From: a virus | Taxonomy: Duplodnaviria > Caudoviricetes | Virus record (IMG/VR): IMGVR_UViG_3300034523_000291 | Span: 1-57,545 of that record | DNA length: 57,545 bases | Direction: 5' to 3' (one strand) | Shown here: positions 1-8,532 of the stretch, piece after piece | Position numbering within the stretch: position 1 is the stretch's first letter | Layout: each line of letters opens with the position of its first letter | The notes under the pieces: model-generated | Database searches by the model: none | What the model was told of the DNA's origin: nothing | The model's input: only the letters and a program-made list of their open reading frames with translations | Position numbers and translations under genes: made by a program

Positions 1-1194
1 TTAGGGTGCGCTTATTTGAACTGGGACCAATTTGGGACCAATCTGGAGCTTTTGCATTTCGCTCCAGTCCGAGCTTGAGTTGATCCAACGCGCATAAGTC
101 GAGAGCAGCATCTGCACACTATGGCCGAGCTGCTGGGAGATGAAGGCGGGGTTCATGCCAGACATAATGCATATTGTCGCATAGGTGTGACGACAGTTGT
201 ATGGCGGCCGACGACGGATATTCAAAGCCTTCAGAGTCGGAATCCACTGCTTGTGCAGGTCGGACGTCTGTTTCACGTACTCCGAGTTCTTTGAAGGCGG
301 GAATATGAAAGGCGTTTCCAGCACCTTGCCCTTGCCACTTTTCCGACGATTAGCGTAGTGCCTGGCGAACTGCAGGGCGTGCATCGCTCGATCGTTCAGC
401 AGCACGAAACGGTCTGAACCAGTCTTCGTCCGCTCCACCACTTCCCCCAAAGCGATCCCTCGACAAACGTGGGCAGTCCTCTTCTCTTCGTCTACCGCAT
501 CCCAGCGCATCGCTAGAGCTTCGGATAGACGCATGCCGGTGAAAAACACAAACTCAAAAAATGCCGCATAGATCGTGCTGGGCCAATGATCATGCGCGTA
601 CATCTTGGCGATGATCTGATTTGCTTCTTCCAGGGTGAACGGGTCGATCTCTTTTTTGCTGCGCTTGGGCAACTCCAGAATAGCCGCCGGGTTCTTCGGA
701 ATCAGTTCCTCGGATACGGCTGAGTTCAGGATGGTGGAAAGCTTCGAGATGGCGTTGCGCTTCACTCCCGGCGACTTCCACTCGTTCGTCGCCATTATCC
801 GGCGAAGCAGGGTGGTGGTGATCAGGTCAATCCGCACCAGGGCCAAGCCGGGCATCCAATAGCGGTTCAACGCGCCCTTGTAGTTTCCCTTCGTTCCAGC
901 GACCACCTCACGACTGTCTAGCCAGAGCTGGGCATACTCGCCGAAGTTGATCTTCCCGCCAGCTACGTTGTTGGAACTAGGGAAAAGCTCGGCGTACTTG
1001 TCGTCGTCGAGCAACCCCAGCTTGATCAGCCCTTTTACTTGATCAACAACCTGTGAGGCAGACTTGATTCCTTTCGGTGTCGGAGGATAGGGGAGCGTTT
1101 CACTGCGCCGGCTGCCGTTCCACATAAAGCGGATGCGGATCGATCCGTGGTGGAGGTCCATTCCTGCGGGCAAACCCATTGGCTTTCGAGCCAT
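1..1194 (-). CDS. int: Tyrosine integrase with N-terminal Arm-binding domain
   Basis: TGMRLSE, YNCRHTY, LGHS and STYA catalytic motifs. Confidence 0.95.
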   Translation of the reverse strand: MARKPMGLPAGMDLHHGSIRIRFMWNGSRRSETLPYPPTPKGIKSASQVVDQVKGLIKLGLLDDDKYAELFPSSNNVAGGKINFGEYAQLWLDSREVVAGTKGNYKGALNRYWMPGLALVRIDLITTTLLRRIMATNEWKSPGVKRNAISKLSTILNSAVSEELIPKNPAAILELPKRSKKEIDPFTLEEANQIIAKMYAHDHWPSTIYAAFFEFVFFTGMRLSEALAMRWDAVDEEKRTAHVCRGIALGEVVERTKTGSDRFVLLNDRAMHALQFARHYANRRKSGKGKVLETPFIFPPSKNSEYVKQTSDLHKQWIPTLKALNIRRRPPYNCRHTYATICIMSGMNPAFISQQLGHSVQMLLSTYARWINSSSDWSEMQKLQIGPKLVPVQISAP

Positions 1195-1379
1195 TCGTAG
1201 TATCTCCTAATGCTGTACATAACGCGGCTGCCGTGCTTATTCCAGACGCCGAGGGGGATTTGGTTTCTGGCTCGCTTGGAGCGCAGGGCCGCTAGGGTGG
1301 TACCCAGGAGCTCGGCCATCTGCGCCTCGGGCACCTTATCTCCGGTAATACCGTCGTTGAGCTGTTCTGCTGCTGTCAT
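1035..1379 (-). CDS. Excisionase-like HTH protein overlapping the int 5' end
   Basis: AQMAELLGTTLAALRSKR HTH-like segment; position directly upstream of int; GGAGG before ATG at 1379. Confidence 0.7.
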   Translation of the reverse strand: MTAAEQLNDGITGDKVPEAQMAELLGTTLAALRSKRARNQIPLGVWNKHGSRVMYSIRRYYEWLESQWVCPQEWTSTTDRSASALCGTAAGAVKRSPILRHRKESSLPHRLLIK

Positions 1380-1381
1380 AC

Positions 1382-1603
1382 CTACCTCCCGCCGCCCGTC
1401 GTGGGACGCGCTTTCTTGATGATGTGTATTGCCAGGCCAAAGGTGATCAACAGCCAGGCGCAAGTGCCGGCGAAGGCGTAGATCAGTGCCTCAGTGGTGC
1501 CGGTGTTCAGAAGTTCGAGCCCGGCCCAAAAGAGCCAGCCGAGTGTTCCTACGAGGTACAACAAAGCGCCCAGCAGGATCAGGGTGAGTTTTATTGCGAA
1601 CAT
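1382..1603 (-). CDS. Small two-TM membrane protein
   Basis: Two hydrophobic segments; SD GAGGA. Confidence 0.7.
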   Translation of the reverse strand: MFAIKLTLILLGALLYLVGTLGWLFWAGLELLNTGTTEALIYAFAGTCAWLLITFGLAIHIIKKARPTTGGGR

Positions 1604-1720
1604 GGGGTGTCCTCGCCGCGCTGGGCGGCATATAGGGGATTGGAGTGATAGCTTTCTGCCTAGATGTCAAATAGGCCGAAAGCCGTGTACAAGAAGGTTC
1701 AATTAAGTTCGTGATGGGGC

Positions 1721-1969
1721 ATGGACGTGTCACACAACTTCGATGCTCCGATAGCGCACGCTTACCGGGGCCACGTGATGTTTCTTAAGTTCGACTGGCG
1801 GCGCCCGAACGATAAGAGCCCTGTTGCCGCACATATCATTGAACCAGCAGCCATCAATGGCTTAGGTGAGGTTGCAGCGAAGTTGGAAGGCCCTTGGCCA
1901 GACTATCCAGCAGCGCTTGATGACGCGATGGCGGCGGCCGAACGATGGATCGATAGTCAGTTGCCGTGA
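1721..1969 (+). CDS. Hypothetical protein (moron)
   Basis: 82-aa ORF oriented against the early operon. Confidence 0.65.
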   Translation: MDVSHNFDAPIAHAYRGHVMFLKFDWRRPNDKSPVAAHIIEPAAINGLGEVAAKLEGPWPDYPAALDDAMAAAERWIDSQLP

Positions 1970-2004
1970 CTCCGCTCACCGACAGGCATGTACGGAGATT
2001 GGGG

Positions 2005-2474
2005 TTAGGGGTGCTTCATGAACGTGATCCAGTGCGTTTTCTCGCGCTTACCGGACTTGTGGCCAAACAGCGGCTGCTCGTCGGCAAGCGCCAGGATTTC
2101 GCTGACCCGGATCTGGGTCTCGTTCCATTTGAAGATCAGGAACTGGCCAGGCCGCAGCACCCGGAAGCACTCAGCGAACCCCTTGCGGAGGTCGTCGCGC
2201 CAGTCGTCGGTGAGGATTCCATACTTCAGCCGCAGCCAGCTTCCCGGCCGGCGCGCACCAGGTGTGGTGGATCGAACACGACCATGTTGAAGCTAGCGTC
2301 GTGGAAGGGCAGGTGCCGGAAATCCATGATGACGTCTGGCTCAACCTTCAGCACCCGGCCATCACATAGCACATGCTCTTCATCGCGAATGTCGCCGAAC
2401 AGGGCGCGCTGGTCGCCTTTGTCGAACCACATCATCCGGCTGGCGCTACAGGGGTCTAGGACGCGTGCATTCAT
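2005..2474 (-). pseudogene. Class I SAM-dependent (DNA) methyltransferase, frameshifted near 2241
   Basis: VLDPCSASRMMW..FDPPHL continues in another frame as WLRLKYG..GFAECFRVLRPG..IFKWNE..THWITFMKHP*; one base is missing at GAA(A)GC. Confidence 0.85.
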
Positions 2475-2682
2475 GGCATAGCTCCGCCCGCCGCTCACCG
2501 GCAAGCTGTTGAGTTGGAAGAGGGGTACAAGGAGCGGTTGTTAGCCGAACCGCTATAGGGAACTTTCCAGTATGGTTTTGTACAAATTGTTGTTTCGTGT
2601 ATAAGTTTTACTGCCGCAATCAAGGTAGGAGAACTATTCGGTTAACTGGCTTGCAGGCCGCCACAGAACATTGAGCGCCACC

Positions 2683-2922
2683 ATGAGTTCCGCGGAAGAT
2701 CTACGATTTCAGGCACACGTTCTGCTTGTTGAGCTTGACGCTGCTACGACGCAGCTAATGATGCTTGTAGTGGCGGGCGAGCTTTCCGGCCCGAGCTGGG
2801 ATGATGCCTTCGCTCGTCATAGCTCTGCTTATTCAGCTTGGGTAACCGCCGTCAGAGGCGTCAAAGTCGACCCAATGCCAATTCTCGACGCTCGCCCTCC
2901 TGAAGAGCCGCTCAGTTGCTGA
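2683..2922 (+). CDS. Hypothetical protein (moron)
   Basis: ORF on + strand after an AT-rich promoter-like stretch. Confidence 0.55.
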   Translation: MSSAEDLRFQAHVLLVELDAATTQLMMLVVAGELSGPSWDDAFARHSSAYSAWVTAVRGVKVDPMPILDARPPEEPLSC

Positions 2923-2977
2923 GGCCACATCAACGCGGCTCCTTGGAGATGAACACGTAGGCGAAACAGGGTGGCGA

Positions 2978-3193
2978 TCATGGCGTCACCTCGACCAGTT
3001 TCCATTTGGTGTTGTTCGTCTGGCTGTGATCCGACTCGACCAGGCCTTCGCGCTTCATCAGTTCCAACTCGCGGCGGATCTGTTTGGTGGTGAACGGTTC
3101 GATATGGAACCGGAACCACCAGGTGCAGAACCAGTTATCCCGGGTACCGTCCGGGCCACTCATGTAGATGATGATCCGCTGGCGGAGGGTCAT
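2978..3193 (-). CDS. Small phage protein, winged-helix-like
   Basis: TTKQIRRELELMKREGLVES; ATGA overlap with upstream gene. Confidence 0.65.
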   Translation of the reverse strand: MTLRQRIIIYMSGPDGTRDNWFCTWWFRFHIEPFTTKQIRRELELMKREGLVESDHSQTNNTKWKLVEVTP

Positions 3194-3909
3194 GACGTCA
3201 CCCGCTTGAACTCGACCACCCAGACCCACGGATTGGCGCTCCAGTCGCCACCGACGCTTTGCCACAGGTTGCCGAAGGCGTTGCGGTTCGAGTCGAGGCA
3301 CTGCTCGTGACTGGTGTTTCTGTCCAACATCCATCCATTGCGCTGCGGGTGACGCGCTTCGGGTGCCGGGCAGGCACCGACCTCAGACCAGCCTTTCACG
3401 CCGTGTCCGCACCTGCGGCCGTAGTCGGTGAAAAAGCAGCCCTCAGCCTGGACCTGGTCTTCGGTGATGTCCTGCAACCGCTCGACGCGCACGTCGGTGA
3501 TCTCCAGCAGGATGCGGCTGGCCCAGCGGGGCATGTGGATGCTGGGCCTCCATGTCGGCTGGTCCTGCTCGTACGGGTTGAGGCCGTCGGCGGCGTACAC
3601 CAGGTCTCCGTCCTCTCGGGCCTGATCAAGGTCCTGCATGTCAGCAGGTTGTAGGTACGGCCCTTTCTGGACCTCGGAGTGATCGCAGTACCAGGTCTCG
3701 CGCACCCAAAGCCTGTCGCCGGGCTTGCCGTAGGGGCAAAGGTCAGCATTACCAGGCAACGCGAGAAAGGCCGGCTCAAACCCAGCGGCTAAACAGTCCA
3801 GCGCCGCTTGTTTCTTCACCTCGCGCCGCGTGACAGTCTTCCGACCTTCCAAGATGGCGCGCACCATCGGCGCCGAAAAGAGTATTGGCCGTTCCTTTAT
3901 TTCAGGCAT
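3190..3909 (-). CDS. ASCH/PUA-like conserved phage protein
   Basis: ERPILFSAPMVRAILEGRKTVTRR, PGDRLWVRET, PSIHMPRWASRI, NPWVWVVEF motifs. Confidence 0.85.
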   Translation of the reverse strand: MPEIKERPILFSAPMVRAILEGRKTVTRREVKKQAALDCLAAGFEPAFLALPGNADLCPYGKPGDRLWVRETWYCDHSEVQKGPYLQPADMQDLDQAREDGDLVYAADGLNPYEQDQPTWRPSIHMPRWASRILLEITDVRVERLQDITEDQVQAEGCFFTDYGRRCGHGVKGWSEVGACPAPEARHPQRNGWMLDRNTSHEQCLDSNRNAFGNLWQSVGGDWSANPWVWVVEFKRVTS

Positions 3910-3969
3910 GACTTCGTCCTTGCCGCTATAGCGGCTGACCATGATGTTTATGTTTAGTAGTCAATAAAT

Positions 3970-4758
3970 TTGCTAGAGTGGCTCTTTGATATTGCGAGGT
4001 ATGGGCTCTTGAAGCGTTTTTTTAATTATTGGGCAGAGCAAGCTCAGTGGTGGAGCAGCAGAAAATTAGAGTGGTGGGCTGCACATGTCACAGCTTTCTA
4101 TTTCGGCGGATCCCTACTCGTCATAGCAGCGAAGTTCGACGAACTAATACTTCTCAAACTAAATGAGATAGGTGACCTGGCCGCCGGAGTTTTCGGGCCC
4201 CTTGCCTTTTTGTGGTTGGTTTTGGGATATATCCAGCAGGGGCGTGAGTTAAGAATAAGTTCTGAATCTTTGAAAATGCAGGCTGATGAGTTGAGGGCTT
4301 CCGTAGAGCAGCAGACCGCTATGGTAGAGGTTTCCAGAAGACAACTTGAAGCCGATCTGGAGGCGTCTGCACATCAGCGTGAGCAAGTCGAACGCCAAGC
4401 AGAGCCAGATATCAGAGTGAAATACTATGACGTTGTTTACTCTCCTGGACGTAATGCTCGCTTTGAGATTTCCAATGTCGGACCTAAGTGTGAGTCTGTC
4501 GAGGTGATTCTGGAAAAAGAGAGCCATGAAGGCTACGAACTGTTAACTTCATTTGGTTACTTGGATGGCAGGGGTGTTCAGTTCATAACTTTGCCTTTTG
4601 CTTTGTTGAGTGTTAGCGAAAGTGTTTTTGTAAAATTTACGTATTTGAAGATTAATGGTAATAGATCCGCTCAAAGATTTGGTTTTTTAAAGGTGGAAAA
4701 TAACGGAAATCAGGACAGCGCCAAGGCGTATAAATATATTAGTCCTTCTCAAGTTTAG
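3970..4758 (+). CDS. Membrane protein with two TM helices and a coiled coil (moron)
   Basis: LNEIGDLAAGVFGPLAFLWLVLGYIQQGRELR; lower GC than neighbours. Confidence 0.75.
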   Translation: MLEWLFDIARYGLLKRFFNYWAEQAQWWSSRKLEWWAAHVTAFYFGGSLLVIAAKFDELILLKLNEIGDLAAGVFGPLAFLWLVLGYIQQGRELRISSESLKMQADELRASVEQQTAMVEVSRRQLEADLEASAHQREQVERQAEPDIRVKYYDVVYSPGRNARFEISNVGPKCESVEVILEKESHEGYELLTSFGYLDGRGVQFITLPFALLSVSESVFVKFTYLKINGNRSAQRFGFLKVENNGNQDSAKAYKYISPSQV

Positions 4759-4866
4759 TGATGTATTAAACATCTCGCCTTCGGCTAGGACGGCATTGCG
4801 GAGGACGATCTTATGATCATGACAATGTCCTATGCCGGGCTATGCCCGGGCGGTGGAGTGGGGGAG

Positions 4867-4953
4867 TTATGCGGCGCGTGCTTGGCGTTGCTCAGTGCGC
4901 CATGGATCGTTGGCGCGTGCCAGCGCTGCCATTGGCGACGGGCTGACGCTGTT
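4867..4953 (-). pseudogene. C-terminal remnant of a phage DNA cytosine methyltransferase
   Basis: NSVSPSPMAALARANDPW..AA* resembles C5-MTase motif X (GNSV.P) and the usual C-terminus; rest of gene absent. Confidence 0.65.
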
Positions 4954-5006
4954 GCGGTTGGTAGGTGATGTCAATATGCTCCCACTCTCAAACAAGGAGG
5001 TGAGCA

Positions 5007-6443
5007 GTGAGTAAATACGCGCCCTTAGCAGACTTTCTGAAAGCCCAGGCGCAGGACTCTGTCCAACTGGCATTCGGTCAGATCGATGCGCTAGTCAATG
5101 GCCTGCCGCCCAGTGCACGGAATCATGATGCTTGGTGGGCGAACTCGCGTACGGAGGATAGCCACACGTGGGCTCACTTATGGATCGCTGCTGGTTGGGA
5201 ATGTGTGTCCGTTAACAGGGCAAATGAAACCGCAGTTTTTCACCGAGCCTCAAATCGCTTAGCAAAGCCCATGCGGCGCTACTGGTGGGTTAATCACAAG
5301 CAAACTCATCTAAATGAGTATGCTGGCGGATACATTTGGTCTCCAAAAGAAAAGCGTAATGGTGCGACCAACCAGACGTATCTGAACCTCACTCTCGTGA
5401 GTCCCGGTGATGTAGTAATTTCGTATGCGGATGGGCTAATAAAGGCAGTAGGCGTTGCTTCGGATGCACATCGCGAAGAGCCTATCCCCGACAGTCATTG
5501 GCAGGCTGCTGAATACTGGCAAGCTCTTGGCTGGATGGTGCCGATCATGTGGGCCAGGCTGGATCATCCAATTTCTCCAAAATTACACTTAGATGCCTTG
5601 TTGGACCTTCTTCCAGAGAAGCATTCCCCATTACAGAAAAATGGCGATGGAAATCAGGGATGTTACCTCGCAAGTATTTCTCCAGCGCTAGGTGGAGTGA
5701 TTCTGGGTCTGGTAGCGGATCGCGATTTGAAAGCGTTGACAACAATTCGGGTTACAGCTTCGTCACAAGTGAATGGGCCAGGGGAGGATCACCGCCGTTT
5801 ACCTGCAGAGCAATTACGCAGTGTAACCCCTGAGTATATTTGGGAGGCAGTGCAAAGCTTGCTTCAGGGCCTGACCTCGGAGGAGTTTGGGCCGTCGATT
5901 GATTATGATTTGTTGGTTGATGAAGGGAAGCGACTGGCACCGAAGCAGGTGTTTGGACTTGCCGCAACAGCCGCTCTAGGGTTCACTCTCAAGTCTCGCC
6001 ACTTCACCGCGGGGAAGGGAACTGTTTGTTTCGAACTGCTGGAAGCCGCGGGTTATAAAATAGTCCCGAAAGGCGAGCAAGTCGAGGTGCTCGAAATACC
6101 CAATGACACTGAAGATAGGGAGTGGGCCGAGGGCCAAGTCAAGCTGGTGTATCACCTGAAACGTGAACGCTCACCGGGTCTATCTAGAGCCAAGAAGGCT
6201 TCATTTATCAAGAGGCATGGCCGGCTTTTTTGCGAGGAGTGCGGAACAGATCCTGTCGAAGCGTATGGCGATTTTGGTGTGGCTTGTATTGAGGTTCATC
6301 ATGAGGCGATCCAGGTTGCAGATATGGGCGAGCAGCACAAGACAACCCTAGACCAATTGCGGTGCCTGTGTGCCAACTGTCATCGTGTTCTGCATCGCAA
6401 ATTGAAGGCTCAGATTGTTCACCCTACACCAGCTAACACTTAG
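5007..6443 (+). CDS. Multidomain HNH endonuclease (type IV/McrA-like)
   Basis: N-terminal KYAPL..WWAN domain, EVE/PUA-like YWWVNHKQT..PGDVV, ScoMcrA-head-like DYDLL..PKQVFG, and CEECG..EVHH..CANCHR HNH domain. Confidence 0.85.
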   Translation: MSKYAPLADFLKAQAQDSVQLAFGQIDALVNGLPPSARNHDAWWANSRTEDSHTWAHLWIAAGWECVSVNRANETAVFHRASNRLAKPMRRYWWVNHKQTHLNEYAGGYIWSPKEKRNGATNQTYLNLTLVSPGDVVISYADGLIKAVGVASDAHREEPIPDSHWQAAEYWQALGWMVPIMWARLDHPISPKLHLDALLDLLPEKHSPLQKNGDGNQGCYLASISPALGGVILGLVADRDLKALTTIRVTASSQVNGPGEDHRRLPAEQLRSVTPEYIWEAVQSLLQGLTSEEFGPSIDYDLLVDEGKRLAPKQVFGLAATAALGFTLKSRHFTAGKGTVCFELLEAAGYKIVPKGEQVEVLEIPNDTEDREWAEGQVKLVYHLKRERSPGLSRAKKASFIKRHGRLFCEECGTDPVEAYGDFGVACIEVHHEAIQVADMGEQHKTTLDQLRCLCANCHRVLHRKLKAQIVHPTPANT

Positions 6444-7231
6444 CCCGACGCTATTTCCGCAGCGCTCGGTTGATAGTCGGCTTCAGCCATCTCGCAAAAA
6501 AAAGAGCAAGCTGGTAACGCCTCGTTTCGTCGGGGTTTACCAGGCGAAAGGTCACGTAGAGAGAAACGGATATTGGTCTTACGGTCGCGATGCAGGTACG
6601 AGCCTGAGCCAAGTTCGTCCTGGACACGGCAAAGCTCTTCAAATTGCTCCGGAAAGTCCTCGCGGATCGCTCGAAAGTAGCCTTCGCCACCTTTCACGCA
6701 GCCGATGCAGTTGGCGTTGTCGTAGCCCAGGCGGTACATCAGTGGCAACTCGATCCCAGCGCGCTGGATCATCGCCTTGCAATCCTCTTTGCCCAGGCCC
6801 GCGTCAATCAGCGGGGCAATAACAGGGCGATCAGGGTTTCGGTCTCGGAAGTCTTCCAGGCGGTCTACTTCTTCCATCGTGTAACCAAACACCATCACGT
6901 CGCCAGGGTTCTTCCATGCGTCGAGCAACCGCCGTTTCAACAGCTTTGTGCATGGCGCACCATTGCGCCCTTTCATGAAACGCTCGCGCCGGAAAACCTG
7001 AATGATGTCTGCGCCGTATTTCTCGTCACGCAGTTGCGCAATTCCCTGACCGAACCACTCCTGGCAGTCCAGCAAGAACCGCCGGTTATCTTCATGCTCG
7101 TTTGCCAGAAAAGCATTGATGATCTGCACGTCGTGCGTGGCGCCGTATTGTGCCAGGGCCATCTTTGTGGCCACAGCCGAGGCGGCGCCGCAGCTGAACT
7201 GGCAAACGATTCGGGGTCGTTGTGCGGACAT
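6440..7231 (-). CDS. PAPS-reductase/adenine nucleotide alpha-hydrolase-like protein
   Basis: FSCGAASA PP-loop variant; Cys motifs APC, NCIGCVK, CSFFC. Confidence 0.75.
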   Translation of the reverse strand: MSAQRPRIVCQFSCGAASAVATKMALAQYGATHDVQIINAFLANEHEDNRRFLLDCQEWFGQGIAQLRDEKYGADIIQVFRRERFMKGRNGAPCTKLLKRRLLDAWKNPGDVMVFGYTMEEVDRLEDFRDRNPDRPVIAPLIDAGLGKEDCKAMIQRAGIELPLMYRLGYDNANCIGCVKGGEGYFRAIREDFPEQFEELCRVQDELGSGSYLHRDRKTNIRFSLRDLSPGKPRRNEALPACSFFCEMAEADYQPSAAEIASG

Positions 7232-7341: not shown

Positions 7342-7572
7342 ATGAATTGCTATCTTTGCGGGATGGAGGCGAAGGAGTCAGGAGAAGGTCAAGGCGAACA
7401 GCTTGTGGATTGCTCTGACTGCGGTACGTACCGAATCTCAAGTCTCGTCCTTAAGGAGCTCGAAACAAAGAAATTTGAGTTCTCGAAGATGCGGGATGAT
7501 TTGCACCGTCAGCGGCAGTTCAACGCCACCTCTGTCGCAGAGATCAATACAGAGACGGCCATCTGGTCTTGA
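7342..7572 (+). CDS. Small zinc-finger protein
   Basis: CYLC..CSDCG; GGAGG SD. Confidence 0.7.
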   Translation: MNCYLCGMEAKESGEGQGEQLVDCSDCGTYRISSLVLKELETKKFEFSKMRDDLHRQRQFNATSVAEINTETAIWS

Positions 7573-7680
7573 GCGGCAGCCGTGCTCCTGTACGTCTTTG
7601 AAGGCACCGATAAATTGGTGTTGAACCTCGATATGGGGTATTACGGGTGACCGGCATGGAGCCGGATCAAGGAGGTATGT

Positions 7681-7893
7681 ATGCGTAATTACAACTACGA
7701 AGCAGGCCTTCATGAGCTTCAAATCGCAAAGGAGGAAGCTGAGGCGGCTGCGGAAGATTTCTACGATAAATACTGGCCGTTCCAGACTGACGAGATAGCC
7801 GCTCAGTACAGGGATCTGCAGTTCACGGCGGTTATCATGCTCGCCGAGTTTGAACAATTTGCTCAGCAAGGCAGCATTAAGCCAGCACGGTAA
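7681..7893 (+). CDS. Hypothetical acidic protein
   Basis: Strong AAGGAGG SD. Confidence 0.65.
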   Translation: MRNYNYEAGLHELQIAKEEAEAAAEDFYDKYWPFQTDEIAAQYRDLQFTAVIMLAEFEQFAQQGSIKPAR

Positions 7894-7899
7894 CGCTCC

Positions 7900-8532
7900 T
7901 TAAGGTGTGTTGCTTGTTCCACAGTTCCGACAGTCTTCCCGATAGCGCTGGGCGTCGCTGATGAACCGGCCGCAGCCTTCACAATTGAACATCATCATTT
8001 TGGGTTTTTTCGGCTTGGGCAGCTTGATGCCGGTTCCCCGTAGAGCCTCCTTGATGTTCACGTCGTCGCGTTCGACCAACCGGCGGCTATGCGCGTCGAT
8101 GTACGGCCTGGGCCAGACCACTGCACCTGATTGACCGAGCTTGCCGATCCAGGTGACGGTGTGAGCCCTCGGCACCACGGCTGCCTTCGACAGATCGCTT
8201 GTGAATACTCCGTCTTCACAAAGCCAAATCAGGTTGTTGCCGTTCCAGCATTGCGGCTTCTGGACGTAAAACTCGGCTGCGTCGGGGTGTTGGTCCAGCG
8301 CCTCGCTCAAGGTGACATTCTGGCAATCGACACCGACTCGCGCCCTGGCGTCGACATAGGCTTTGGGCCAGGGGATGTCAGTGTCGCGGTGATCGCAAGC
8401 GCCGTCCCGGGTGAACACTTGGGCCTTGGCCAGATCAGTGACATAACCAGATCCGCCAAAGCCCCAGAACGATAACCCGTCGCCGACGTAGGCCTGGCTG
8501 CGGCTGTCTTGCAGGTAGAACTGGTCGTCCAT
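7900..8532 (-). CDS. Phage protein with internal duplication and C-terminal zinc ribbon
   Basis: Two FYxQ..TDL/SDL.KA..WP..Y.DA repeats; CEGC..CRNC. Confidence 0.8.
   Translation of the reverse strand: MDDQFYLQDSRSQAYVGDGLSFWGFGGSGYVTDLAKAQVFTRDGACDHRDTDIPWPKAYVDARARVGVDCQNVTLSEALDQHPDAAEFYVQKPQCWNGNNLIWLCEDGVFTSDLSKAAVVPRAHTVTWIGKLGQSGAVVWPRPYIDAHSRRLVERDDVNIKEALRGTGIKLPKPKKPKMMMFNCEGCGRFISDAQRYREDCRNCGTSNTP

What the first reader, a model, noticed from the sequence alone, without database searches (positions are those of the whole stretch)
4867..7231. PAPS-reductase-like enzyme plus multi-reader HNH nuclease apparently replacing a cytosine methyltransferase
Seen: a Cys-rich PP-loop protein (6440-7231, -) and a four-domain HNH nuclease (5007-6443, +) converge with a 4-nt overlap. 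Just beyond lies an orphan 28-codon tail, NSVSPSPMAALARANDPW, resembling C5-MTase motif X and C-terminus. From recollection, related prophage cytosine MTases start MSAQ, as the PP-loop gene does. Known: PAPS-reductase folds (e.g. DndC) act in DNA modification, and EVE/ScoMcrA-type domains on HNH nucleases mark modification-dependent restriction. Inference: this two-gene module replaced the MTase and may be an undescribed modification/restriction pair. Alternatively it is a 5mC-cutting anti-phage nuclease that is incompatible with keeping the MTase.
Basis: partly seen in the sequence, partly recalled or inferred. Interest (0 to 1): 0.8.

Follow-up and report, generated by a model that had tools for sequence, protein, structure and literature searches.

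The report
Prophage methyl-cytosine nuclease replaced its methylase
In a Pseudomonas prophage, a nuclease gene that probably cuts methylated-cytosine DNA sits where the phage's own cytosine methylase used to be, leaving only the methylase's last 28 codons, while the neighbouring sulfur-enzyme-like gene is an ordinary backbone gene and not its partner.

Summary
6440-7231(-) encodes a Cys-rich PAPS-reductase-like protein. 5007-6443(+) encodes a four-domain HNH nuclease. The two stop codons overlap. 4867-4953(-) is a true C-terminal remnant of a ~700-aa phage C5-cytosine methyltransferase.

The PAPS-reductase gene is a common backbone gene: 65 of 80 related loci have it without the nuclease, and it often sits beside an intact methylase. 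Nuclease relatives also occur without it, or next to a decayed copy.

Nuclease residues 91-238 form an EVE domain like that of VcaM4I, a 5mC/5hmC-dependent enzyme (E 2.9e-35), and all three base-pocket residues are conserved. The third domain resembles only the function-unknown 'head' of ScoMcrA. The HNH domain is McrA-like.

Whole-record census for a C5-methylase:
- 0 of 13 EVE-nuclease prophages of this family have one.
- 40 of 65 siblings without the nuclease have one.
- 2 of 5 siblings whose nuclease lacks EVE have one.

The same remnant junction recurs in nine loci, and two other methylase wrecks lie beside related nucleases. Counter-example: two distant EVE-HNH genes sit next to intact methylases.

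Verdict: a new architectural variant of a known type IV restriction enzyme, with a clear replacement history. Interest is moderate.

The parts
5007..6443 (+). Nuclease gene (478 aa, GTG start), antisense to the surrounding minus-strand early operon. Predicted type IV (modification-dependent) restriction endonuclease.
   Evidence: ORF and translation. AF2 model with pLDDT 84. 1071 homologues at E<=1e-3 among 8000 scored candidates. dN/dS of 0.14-0.19 against three relatives with 451-456 of 479 identical codon positions.
5007..5276 (+). Domain 1, residues 1-90: DUF7662 (function unknown). In relatives this position is swapped for other N-terminal domains.
   Evidence: Pfam PF24698, E 1.1e-15 for the whole protein and 1.9e-17 for the domain alone. 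Relatives carry PF26345, PF28530 or no Pfam domain (precomputed hits). L041 and L008 carry a different N-terminus.
5277..5714 (+). Domain 2, residues 91-236: EVE (PUA-superfamily) modified-cytosine reader.
   Evidence: phmmer against VcaM4I (PDB 6yex), residues 2-148, E 2.9e-35. Profile E 1.9e-56. Foldseek E 6e-16. The VcaM4I pocket residues P24, W82 and Y130 (abstract of PMC7897488) align to P113, W171 and Y220; the residue-number mapping was counted by hand from the alignment.
5715..6116 (+). Domain 3, residues 237-370: small winged-helix-like alpha/beta domain resembling the ScoMcrA 'head' domain (function unknown).
   Evidence: Domain model with pLDDT above 90 over about residues 30-120. 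VIA-align Z 8.2 to 5zmm_A residues 5-107, next best Z 3.9. Foldseek top hit 5zmm_B, E 0.12, prob 0.99. No Pfam hit at E<=10.
6117..6443 (+). Domain 4, residues 371-478 plus the stop codon: McrA-type HNH nuclease with CxxC...CxxC and a His-His motif.
   Evidence: PHROG HNH families, E 1.1e-7 to 4.5e-4. PADLOC mREase_IV, 6.3e-5. phmmer against EcoKMcrA (6ghc), E 0.002 over residues 399-468.
4994..5001 (+). Shine-Dalgarno sequence AAGGAGGT, 5 nt before the GTG start of the nuclease gene.
   Evidence: Read from the sequence.
4867..4955 (-). Remnant of the last 28 codons plus stop of a ~700-aa phage C5-cytosine methyltransferase (motif X onward). The rest of the listed ORF 4867-5073 is not methylase-derived.
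   Evidence: BLASTP against P0007 residues 695-722, E 3e-11. DNA homology to intact methylase 3' ends starts at 4955. The same junction occurs in 8 other loci.
6440..7231 (-). PAPS-reductase-like (PP-loop, Cys-rich) gene. It is a conserved backbone gene of this prophage family and a close homologue of PDB 21fy 'PptA'.
   Evidence: phrog_424, 4.9e-47. PDB 21fy_C, E 4.9e-63 over residues 1-247. 114 related viral stretches found, 80 kept. dN/dS of 0.084 against L028.
3970..4758 (+). Second antisense cargo gene (262 aa, TTG start as listed; phrog_9267, function unknown) in a low-GC stretch. It is a neighbour of the nuclease, and whether it belongs to the same unit is unproven.
   Evidence: GC is 0.47-0.48 at 4001-5000, against 0.54-0.62 across 1-4000. 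Relatives lie beside the nuclease in L022 and L107, but also without it in L045, L047 and L075.
3190..3942 (-). phrog_874 backbone gene that marks the far side of the variable slot.
   Evidence: phrog_874, E 6.8e-76. Syntenic in L057, L061 and L094 beyond the methylase.

Best explanation
The window is a complete Pseudomonas (fluorescens-group) provirus. Its minus-strand early-left operon once ran PAPS-reductase-like gene -> C5-cytosine methyltransferase -> phrog_874 gene.

An antisense gene with its own ribosome-binding site replaced methylase codons 1 to about 694. Only the last 28 codons are left.

The incoming gene encodes a type IV (modification-dependent) restriction endonuclease with four domains: DUF7662, an EVE domain, a ScoMcrA-head-like domain and a McrA-type HNH domain.

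Inferred mechanism:
- The EVE domain flips 5-methyl- or 5-hydroxymethyl-cytosine out of incoming DNA into its P113/W171/Y220 pocket.
- The HNH domain then cuts.
- The lysogen therefore excludes phages whose DNA carries modified cytosine, including the majority of sibling prophages that still encode the methylase.
- A phage that expressed both genes would cut its own DNA on induction. This explains why the methylase is gone.

The PAPS-reductase-like gene is an independent, older backbone gene (PptA-like, a DndC/SspD relative). It is probably a phage DNA-modification or counter-defence enzyme. It is adjacent only because the slot behind it is where cargo is exchanged.

Shown here: gene structures, domain homologies, the remnant, synteny, breakpoints and co-occurrence statistics.

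Inferred: substrate specificity, expression in lysogeny, and incompatibility as the cause of the methylase loss.
For: Replacement:
- Against L057, L094, L063 and L068 (PAPS -> methylase order), homology runs through the PAPS gene to about 6470-6476 and resumes at 4955 in the methylase tail. In L057 and L094 it then continues into the phrog_874 gene. L061 has the same gene order but gave no tail hit at this threshold. The nuclease gene fills the gap.
- The tail is 21 of 28 identical to P0007 residues 695-722.
- The same junction (…TNRN|SVSPP…) lies upstream of the nuclease start in 8 of 10 regions examined (window, L003, L004, L010, L011, L022, L107, L108). L004 and L107 are frameshifted and L108 has an early stop. 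L041 has it too. This points to one old event.

Reader and nuclease:
- EVE against VcaM4I, E 2.9e-35, with all three pocket residues conserved.
- HNH against EcoKMcrA, E 0.002.
- dN/dS of 0.14-0.19.

Exclusion, PF00145 searched in whole records:
- 0 of 13 EVE-nuclease records of this prophage family.
- 40 of 65 sibling records without the nuclease at E<=1e-3, 35 of 65 over the cut-off.
- Fisher p = 2.5e-5. For records at least 90% complete, 0 of 9 against 28 of 40, p = 1.4e-4. Collapsed to about 7 lineages, p = 2.3e-3.
- Nucleases with the same head-like and HNH domains but no EVE coexist with a C5-methylase in 2 of 5 records.
- 14 further records with EVE at 47-60% identity: none over the cut-off.

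Independent wrecks:
- L013 keeps only the first 40 residues of a 307-aa methylase family behind an EVE nuclease.
- L012 keeps only the last 43 residues in front of a related nuclease.
- EVE-less L008 keeps that methylase intact.

PAPS independence:
- 65 of 80 PAPS-anchored loci have no nuclease hit, and 11 of 80 carry the full-length methylase, on either side of the PAPS gene.
- Complete proviruses G006 and G085 have nuclease relatives and no PAPS match.
- PAPS is split over two reading frames in L005 and L007, and only residues 176-245 remain in L107, each next to an intact nuclease.
Against: - No biochemical data exist for this protein. For VcaM4I the authors report only moderate EVE specificity and a cleavage preference for 5hmC over 5mC (PMC7897488, abstract and Discussion). 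A 5mC methylase might therefore be tolerated.
- Direct counter-example: in L025 and L026 (EVE 45-46% identical, pocket residues present), a 314-328-aa EVE-HNH gene lies 130-135 nt from an intact C5-methylase gene.
- The census records are related phages, so the Fisher p-values overstate independence.
- The nuclease and the downstream-type methylase compete for the same slot, which alone produces some exclusion.
- L012's nuclease has no EVE hit, yet it sits beside a methylase wreck.
- The promoter scan found no promoter-like site upstream of the nuclease gene between 4759 and 5006. Expression in lysogeny is inferred only from orientation and the Shine-Dalgarno sequence.
- 8 of 9 viral loci with the head-like and HNH modules have the PAPS gene immediately convergent. 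A functional link is unlikely but not formally excluded.
Confidence: 0.65

Rival explanations
1. The PAPS-reductase-like enzyme installs a DNA modification (for example a phosphorothioate-like or other sulfur mark). The multi-domain HNH nuclease either reads that mark or is blocked by it. Together they form an undescribed modification/restriction pair that displaced the methylase.
For: - There is tight convergent adjacency with overlapping stop codons.
- 8 of 9 viral loci with the head-like and HNH modules, and L108, have the PAPS gene directly behind the nuclease.
- P0002 is a DndC/SspD relative (PADLOC SspD, 1.8e-6).
- Domain 3 resembles part of the PT-dependent enzyme ScoMcrA.
- DUF7662 is of unknown function and could be a reader.
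Against: - 65 of 80 PAPS loci lack the nuclease.
- PAPS is decayed next to intact nucleases in L005, L007 and L107.
- Complete proviruses G006 and G085 have nuclease relatives without PAPS.
- 72 of 78 bacterial genome loci with the EVE domain gave no hit to any other query, PAPS included; only 3 of the 78 had a PAPS hit within about 6 kb.
- The ScoMcrA-like part is the head domain, not the sulfur-binding domain.
- The provirus has no DndE, DUF4007/SspB or cysteine-desulfurase match. The first two searches had no positive control.
- The synteny breakpoints show that only the nuclease gene is new.
Confidence: 0.07
2. The nuclease is a modification-dependent enzyme, but its relevant target is not the 5mC written by phage methylases. 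It could be 5hmC or glucosyl-hmC phage DNA, or another base. On this reading the absence of the methylase is a by-product of cassette exchange at one recombination hotspot, not of incompatibility.
For: - VcaM4I-type enzymes cleave 5hmC DNA better than 5mC DNA (PMC7897488 Discussion).
- L025 and L026 keep an intact C5-methylase next to an EVE-HNH gene.
- The slot behind the PAPS gene is very variable: 226 ORFs of at least 110 aa fall into 126 clusters over 80 loci.
Against: - The methylase also occurs upstream of the PAPS gene in 6 of the 11 loci with a full-length copy, so slot competition cannot explain 0 of 13 in whole records.
- EVE-less versions of the same nuclease coexist with methylases in 2 of 5 records.
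- Two further independent methylase wrecks lie beside related nucleases.
Confidence: 0.18
3. The gene is not a defence nuclease. It could be a selfish homing-type HNH, or a toxin whose EVE domain binds RNA or another ligand. Its insertion into the methylase would then be accidental.
For: - HNH genes in phages are often homing or packaging factors (general knowledge).
- EVE domains were first linked to RNA biology (PMC7897488 Discussion).
- The nuclease has no PADLOC hit stronger than 6.3e-5.
Against: - The EVE domain is 40-50% identical to a crystallographically proven DNA 5mC/5hmC reader, with the pocket conserved.
- The McrA-type HNH and the ScoMcrA-like head domain are both type IV restriction hallmarks.
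- The gene is under purifying selection.
- The gene is non-randomly exclusive with C5-methylases.
Confidence: 0.08

Closest known systems
VcaM4I / TspA15I-group EVE-HNH modification-dependent restriction endonucleases (PDB 6yex; PMC7897488, PMC6765204)
   Same: - The EVE domain is clearly homologous (E 2.9e-35).
- The three base-pocket residues are conserved.
- A C-terminal HNH nuclease is present.
- The expected action is NTP-independent cutting of DNA that carries 5mC or 5hmC.
   Different: - VcaM4I has two domains (309 aa).
- Its HNH matches EcoKMcrA rather than the VcaM4I HNH. VcaM4I aligned only over the EVE domain and linker, residues 2-148.
- It is prophage-borne and occupies the place of a methylase.
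- Only the abstracts of both papers and the Discussion of PMC7897488 were read.
ScoMcrA (PDB 5zmm; PMC6224610), a phosphorothioate- and 5mC-dependent type IV HNH endonuclease
   Same: - It has a four-domain beads-on-a-string layout ending in an HNH domain.
- Domain 3 here has the fold of the ScoMcrA head domain (Z 8.2, rmsd 5.1 over 78 residues).
   Different: - No sulfur-binding domain or SRA domain was detected here.
- The head-like domain is internal here, not N-terminal.
[quoted passage not shown]
EcoKMcrA (PDB 6ghc)
   Same: The HNH domain is of the same type, with Zn-binding Cys pairs (E 0.002 over residues 399-468). Like EcoKMcrA, it is prophage-encoded and type IV (from my own recollection, not from a call).
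   Different: The reader domains are unrelated. Only the nuclease domain aligns.
PptA (PDB 21fy) and phage PAPS-reductase-like proteins (phrog_424; DndC/SspD relatives)
   Same: - P0002 aligns over residues 1-247 with E 4.9e-63, including the PP-loop-like motif and the Cys pairs.
- Homologues are found in Vibrio, Pseudoalteromonas and Mycobacterium phages among others: 90 phage records.
   Different: - I found no paper describing PptA, so its activity is unknown to me.
- A phage PAPS reductase that helps evade Dnd is cited second-hand (Piel et al. 2022, cited in PMC13551039, passage read). That paper is not held.
- No Dnd or Ssp partner genes were found in this provirus.
Epigenetic conflict between a methyltransferase and a type IV endonuclease (PMC8989522, search listing and start of the abstract only)
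   Same: The concept is the same: a modification-dependent nuclease and a methylase cannot share a cell unless one of them is lost or silenced.
   Different: Here the conflict is inferred within a single prophage lineage, and it is fossilised as a methylase remnant beside the nuclease gene.

Membership tests
EVE-HNH modification-dependent restriction endonucleases (VcaM4I type) | An EVE (PUA-superfamily) domain homologous to that of characterised members | tested here: met
   phmmer E 2.9e-35 to 6yex residues 2-148. Profile E 1.9e-56. Foldseek E 6e-16.
EVE-HNH modification-dependent restriction endonucleases (VcaM4I type) | A hydrophobic pocket for the flipped 5mC/5hmC base (P24, W82, Y130 in VcaM4I) | tested here: met
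   The gap-free alignment places P113, W171 and Y220 at these positions (counted by hand from that alignment). The residue list comes from the abstract of PMC7897488.
EVE-HNH modification-dependent restriction endonucleases (VcaM4I type) | A C-terminal HNH (beta-beta-alpha-Me) nuclease domain | tested here: met
   PHROG HNH, 1.1e-7. PADLOC mREase_IV, 6.3e-5. EcoKMcrA, E 0.002. It is a different HNH subtype from that of VcaM4I.
EVE-HNH modification-dependent restriction endonucleases (VcaM4I type) | Two-domain architecture (reader, linker helix, nuclease) | tested here: not met
   There are four folded domains: DUF7662 at residues 4-79 and a head-like domain at residues 237-370 are extra. For this reason it is filed as a variant, not a plain member.
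EVE-HNH modification-dependent restriction endonucleases (VcaM4I type) | Cleavage depends on modified cytosine | not testable with these tools
   This needs nuclease or restriction assays. The only indirect support is the exclusion from C5-methylases: 0 of 13 against 40 of 65.
ScoMcrA-type phosphorothioate-dependent endonucleases | A sulfur-binding domain (SBD, about 10 helices) that recognises PT-DNA | tested here: inconclusive
   There is no Pfam hit other than DUF7662. Fold searches matched only the head domain of 5zmm (residues 5-107). No segment of the model is a 10-helix domain. Absence from a fold search is not proof.
ScoMcrA-type phosphorothioate-dependent endonucleases | An SRA domain | tested here: inconclusive
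   The PUA-superfamily reader here is an EVE domain, with best matches to VcaM4I, EVE and YTH structures. No SRA entry appears among the rows shown.
Dnd / Ssp phosphorothioation modification modules (for the PAPS-reductase-like gene) | A DndC/SspD-type PP-loop enzyme | tested here: inconclusive
   PADLOC SspD only at 1.8e-6 and 25.9 bits. No Pfam or NCBIfam hit. The closest match is PDB 'PptA'.
Dnd / Ssp phosphorothioation modification modules (for the PAPS-reductase-like gene) | Partner genes encoded alongside (DndD/DndE or SspB/SspC, and a cysteine desulfurase) | tested here: not met
   The complete provirus has no match to PF08870 DndE, PF13182 DUF4007 or PF00266. The first two searches lacked a positive control. 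The neighbouring ORFs have no PADLOC hit. A host could still supply partners in trans.
C5-cytosine DNA methyltransferase (for the 4867-4955 remnant) | Motifs I-X of PF00145 in one open frame | tested here: not met
   Only the last 28 codons (motif X onward) remain. There is no PF00145 match anywhere in the window. It is a remnant, not a gene.

The most novel reading that the evidence does not exclude
The nuclease is a weapon of prophage against prophage. It reads exactly the 5mC mark that most sibling phages of this family (40 of 65) write on their own DNA with the methylase this prophage discarded. A lysogen would therefore specifically exclude its closest competitors.

The swappable N-terminal modules (DUF7662 and others) would act as second sensors that tune which modified DNA is attacked. 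DUF7662-bearing nucleases, with or without EVE, were never seen with an intact C5-methylase in the records searched.
Probability: 0.3. Interest if true: 0.6.

Novelty: new variant of a known kind. Interest (0 to 1): 0.42.

Why it matters
It is a clean natural example of an epigenetic conflict resolved inside a phage genome. A reader-nuclease for modified cytosine took the place of the writer of that modification. The fossil junction is conserved across many prophages, and related wrecks occur elsewhere.

It offers a testable case of prophage-encoded type IV restriction aimed at related phages.

It also adds an uncharacterised four-domain architecture to the EVE-HNH enzymes: DUF7662, EVE, a ScoMcrA-head-like domain and a McrA-type HNH.

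Finally, it corrects a tempting wrong inference, that the adjacent PAPS-reductase-like gene is the nuclease's modification partner.

Tried and rejected
Literature and notes
- Four literature searches for 'PptA' found no relevant paper.
- Piel et al. 2022 is not held, so the anti-Dnd claim is second-hand.
- Supplements were not consulted.

Searches that gave nothing usable
- The ESM Atlas gave no usable hit for residues 237-370 or 1-90.
It was rerun with the single protein. That scan returned mostly EVE-only hits in diverse bacteria: 72 of 78 loci gave no hit to any query other than EVE. It therefore could not test PAPS linkage beyond Pseudomonas prophages.
- PDB sequence searches with three neighbouring proteins found no partner chain of entry 21fy.

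Slot behind the PAPS gene
- Ten antisense cargo ORFs from this slot in other loci were scanned. Nine had no Pfam or PADLOC hit and one was an integrase.
- I therefore call the slot 'variable', not a 'defence hotspot'. Some of these ORFs may be spurious.

Promoters, terminators and transcription
- The scan gave one promoter-like site (4712-4740, inside the upstream ORF) and no terminator, which is not above the shuffled expectation.
- An RNA-library contig from a peat metatranscriptome (X18), about 94% identical, covers 5001-6663. Contigs cannot show strand or level, and DNA carry-over is possible. It is only a weak hint that a relative is transcribed.
- Parts of the stretch without cover in these runs mean nothing.

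Other


Full report
**Context**

The window is a complete provirus record (CheckV 100%) with a tyrosine integrase at 1-1194(-). Close relatives of its genes lie in Pseudomonas prophages. Pseudomonas palleroniana and P. cedrina contigs carry the nuclease at 95% identity, and the nearest phage-database hits are Pseudomonas phages.

The genes around the finding run on the minus strand, from about 8532 down to the integrase. Two ORFs, 3970-4758 and 5007-6443, are the only long plus-strand ORFs there. They sit in or next to a GC dip: 0.47-0.48 at 4001-5000, against 0.54-0.62 across 1-4000.

**Observation**

- P0002 (6440-7231, minus strand) has 263 aa and 10 Cys. It has a PP-loop-like FSCGAAS motif and two Cys pairs, and it matches phrog_424 'PAPS reductase' at 4.9e-47.
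- P0001 (5007-6443, plus strand) has 478 aa.
- The two stop codons interlock: TAG at 6441-6443 and TAA on the other strand at 6440-6442.
- The 28-codon tail (4867-4953, minus strand) matches the extreme C-terminus of large phage proteins in ten other loci. They end …HMCGNSVSPPPMAALARANDPW….
- One of these, P0007 (722 aa, L057), is a PF00145 C5-methyltransferase (E 1.7e-24). It aligns with the tail at 21 of 28 identities, E 3e-11.
- The rest of the listed ORF 4867-5073 is just the antisense of the nuclease gene's start region.

**The nuclease**

Pfam sees only DUF7662 at residues 4-79.

A profile of 63 homologues hits the crystal structure of VcaM4I, an EVE-HNH endonuclease, at E 1.9e-56. The single sequence hits it at 2.9e-35 over residues 91-238, and the AlphaFold2 model (pLDDT 84) hits it at Foldseek E 6e-16.

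The VcaM4I paper states in its abstract that the EVE domain flips 5mC or 5hmC into a pocket formed mainly by P24, W82 and Y130. In the gap-free alignment these positions are P113, W171 and Y220 in P0001.

Residues 237-370 have no sequence-detectable relatives. I modelled them separately from 15 natural sequences.
- The best structural match is the N-terminal 'head' domain of ScoMcrA (5zmm_A residues 5-107): VIA-align Z 8.2, rmsd 5.1 over 78 residues.
- The next row has Z 3.9, and the rest are generic winged-helix proteins.
- Foldseek also ranks ScoMcrA first (E 0.12, prob 0.99).
- The ScoMcrA authors describe the head as small and of unknown function (passage read).

The C-terminal domain is an HNH of the McrA kind: EcoKMcrA E 0.002, PHROG HNH 1.1e-7, PADLOC type IV enzyme 6.3e-5.

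The 'four-domain' description is therefore right, and the 'EVE/ScoMcrA-type' recollection was good. Only one of the domains is an established modification reader.

The gene is under purifying selection, with dN/dS of 0.14-0.19 against three relatives. It has a strong Shine-Dalgarno sequence.

The family is modular. Relatives swap the N-terminal domain (DUF7662, PF26345, PF28530 or none) and the nuclease type (PF13391 HNH_2 in shorter forms).

**What was replaced**

I mapped eight query pieces onto 106 loci by tblastn.

Among the 80 loci anchored on the PAPS-reductase gene (the best 80 of 114 confirmed stretches):
- 13 have the head-like plus HNH nuclease convergent directly behind the PAPS gene.
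- 2 more have a DUF7662-EVE gene a little further on.
- 65 have neither.
- 11 carry a full-length methylase of the P0007 family: 5 downstream of the PAPS gene, where the window has the nuclease, and 6 upstream.

DNA comparison with L057, L094, L063 and L068 shows homology through the PAPS gene down to about 6470-6476. It resumes at 4955 in the methylase tail. In L057 and L094 it then continues into the phrog_874 gene. L061 shares the gene order but gave no tail hit at that threshold.

Only the nuclease gene and its 50-nt leader are therefore new relative to the PAPS -> methylase -> phrog_874 arrangement. The PP-loop gene was there before.

The 'MSAQ' coincidence carries no weight, because the PAPS-reductase N-terminus is matched from residue 1 in loci with an intact methylase.

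The remnant is old and shared.
- The same junction precedes the nuclease start in window, L003, L004, L010, L011, L022, L107 and L108. That is 8 of the 10 upstream regions I translated.
- It is decayed to different degrees: frameshifts in L004 and L107, an early stop in L108.
- L041 has it as well.
- L010, L011 and L022 come from records with no PAPS-reductase match. The remnant therefore travels with the 5' end of the nuclease gene.

**Is the PP-loop gene the nuclease's partner?**

The evidence says no.
- 65 of 80 PAPS-anchored loci lack the nuclease.
- The complete proviruses G006 (L008) and G085 (L022) have nuclease relatives but no PAPS-reductase match.
- In L005 and L007 the PAPS-reductase match is split into two reading frames, judged from HSP coordinates.
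- In the P. palleroniana locus L107 only residues 176-245 remain. In each of these three loci the nuclease beside it is intact.
- Of 78 bacterial genome loci found with the nuclease, 72 gave no hit to any query other than EVE. Only 3 of the 78 had a PAPS hit.
- The provirus has no DndE, DUF4007/SspB or cysteine-desulfurase match. The first two searches had no positive control.

What the PP-loop protein does remains open.
- Its nearest characterised relative is PDB 21fy 'PptA' (E 4.9e-63). I could find no paper on it.
- A 2026 NAR paper notes that phage PAPS reductases are DndC/SspD homologues clustering in variable, anti-defence-rich regions. It cites Piel et al. 2022 for one that promotes evasion of Dnd (passages read). 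That primary paper is not held.
- Homologues occur in 90 phage records, and one (vB_Pae_U5) is annotated as 'integrase'.

**Is the nuclease incompatible with the methylase?**

I searched whole records for PF00145.

| Group of records | With a PF00145 match |
|---|---|
| EVE-nuclease records of this prophage family | 0 of 13 |
| Sibling records without the nuclease, E<=1e-3 | 40 of 65 |
| The same siblings, over the curated cut-off | 35 of 65 |
| Same head-like + HNH nuclease but no EVE | 2 of 5 (G006, G013) |
| 14 further viral records, EVE 47-60% identical | 0 over the cut-off |

The 13 EVE-nuclease records are the window plus the records of L003-L007, L029-L031, L041, L073, L072 and L085.

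- Fisher's exact test gives p = 2.5e-5. For records at least 90% complete it is 0 of 9 against 28 of 40, p = 1.4e-4. After collapsing to about seven nuclease lineages it is 2.3e-3.
- These records are related, so the p-values are upper bounds on significance.
- The single sub-threshold match among the 14 further records is itself a wreck. L013 retains 28 of 40 identities to the first 40 residues of the 307-aa methylase family and then stops, just behind an EVE nuclease.
- L012 has the last 43 residues of the same methylase family immediately in front of a DUF7662 nuclease.
- EVE-less L008 keeps that methylase whole.

Against the model:
- The two most distant viral hits, L025 and L026 (EVE 45-46% identical, one lineage), encode a VcaM4I-like 314-328-aa EVE-HNH only 130-135 nt from an intact C5-methylase, with a further gene that could be its restriction partner.
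- VcaM4I itself prefers 5hmC in cleavage assays (Discussion read).
- L012's nuclease lacks an EVE hit.

Incompatibility is thus well supported within this prophage family. It is not a universal property of EVE-HNH enzymes, and it may depend on sequence context or on the other domains.

**Mechanism proposed**

Shown: the architecture, the homologies, the replacement and the exclusion.

Inferred:
- The antisense gene is expressed from the prophage.
- Its EVE domain recruits it to cytosine-modified incoming DNA, and the HNH domain cuts.
- The lysogen thereby resists modified phages, including its methylase-bearing cousins.
- The methylase had to go, because on induction it would have marked the phage's own DNA for the nuclease.

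Expression evidence is weak. One metatranscriptome contig at about 94% identity covers 5001-6663, but it cannot show strand or exclude DNA. No promoter-like site was found between 4759 and 5006.

**Verdict**

- The finding is real and its coordinates are exact.
- The headline interpretation, a new modification/restriction pair, is not supported.
- It is a new architectural variant of a known enzyme class with an unusually legible evolutionary history. Interest is moderate (0.42).
- The slot behind the PAPS-reductase gene is highly variable: 226 ORFs fall into 126 clusters. Nine of ten sampled antisense cargo ORFs have no family hit, so other unknown cargo genes may deserve a look.

Noticed in passing
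window 3970-4758 (+): A second antisense cargo gene just upstream of the nuclease: 262 aa, phrog_9267, with no Pfam, NCBIfam or PADLOC hit, in a stretch of 47-48% GC. Relatives lie beside nuclease genes in L022 and L107, and beside the PAPS gene without a nuclease in L045, L047 and L075. Its function is unknown.
   Followed up: partly
L025 4709-6942 and L026 3821-6984: A VcaM4I-like EVE-HNH gene (314-328 aa) lies divergently next to an intact C5-methyltransferase, with a further 273-364-aa gene convergent with the methylase (a possible restriction partner). This is a counter-example to simple EVE/methylase incompatibility. The methylase target motif would be worth knowing.
   Followed up: partly
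L013 4833-5210 (-) and L012 4654-4818 (-): Two further methylase wrecks from a different (307-aa) C5-methylase family. L013 keeps an N-terminal 40-residue fragment behind an EVE nuclease. L012 keeps a C-terminal 43-residue fragment in front of a DUF7662 nuclease that has no EVE hit.
   Followed up: yes
L005 2595-3390, L007 5576-6332, L107 7490-7699: The PAPS-reductase gene appears frameshifted in L005 and L007 (two tblastn pieces in different frames). In L107 it is reduced to residues 176-245. In each locus an intact nuclease gene lies next to it. The frameshifts were judged from HSP coordinates only and could be assembly errors.
   Followed up: partly
L001 4853-5653 (Pseudomonas phage vB_Pae_U5, PP003917.1): The homologue of the PAPS-reductase-like gene (78% identical) is annotated as 'integrase' in the public record, which looks like a mis-annotation. 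The same phage has a 626-aa 'DNA methyltransferase' further down the operon.
   Followed up: no
L070 6777-7961 (-) and 8377-9462 (+): A nuclease variant whose N-terminal ~150 residues are neither DUF7662 nor the VcaM4I-type EVE. From its sequence it may be another PUA-like domain; this was not tested. It coexists with a 361-aa C5-methylase-like gene (PF00145, 1.5e-14).
   Followed up: no
80 loci L027-L106, first ~2.6 kb after the PAPS-reductase gene: The gene content here is very variable: 226 ORFs of at least 110 aa fall into 126 clusters. Many are antisense ORFs with no Pfam or PADLOC hit (9 of 10 sampled). Some may be spurious high-GC ORFs.
   Followed up: partly
window 5001-6663: A contig from a peat metatranscriptome library (coded run X18) covers the whole nuclease ORF and the 3' end of the PAPS gene at about 94% identity. 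It begins 6 nt before the start codon, next to adapter sequence. Another contig in the same run diverges exactly at 4955, the methylase-tail breakpoint.
   Followed up: no
window 7438-7869 (-) and 7900-8532 (-): The two genes upstream of the PAPS-reductase gene in the operon (143 aa with no family hit; 210 aa in phrog_2457, annotated 'DNA binding protein' in phage Dolphis) have no PDB or Pfam match.
   Followed up: no
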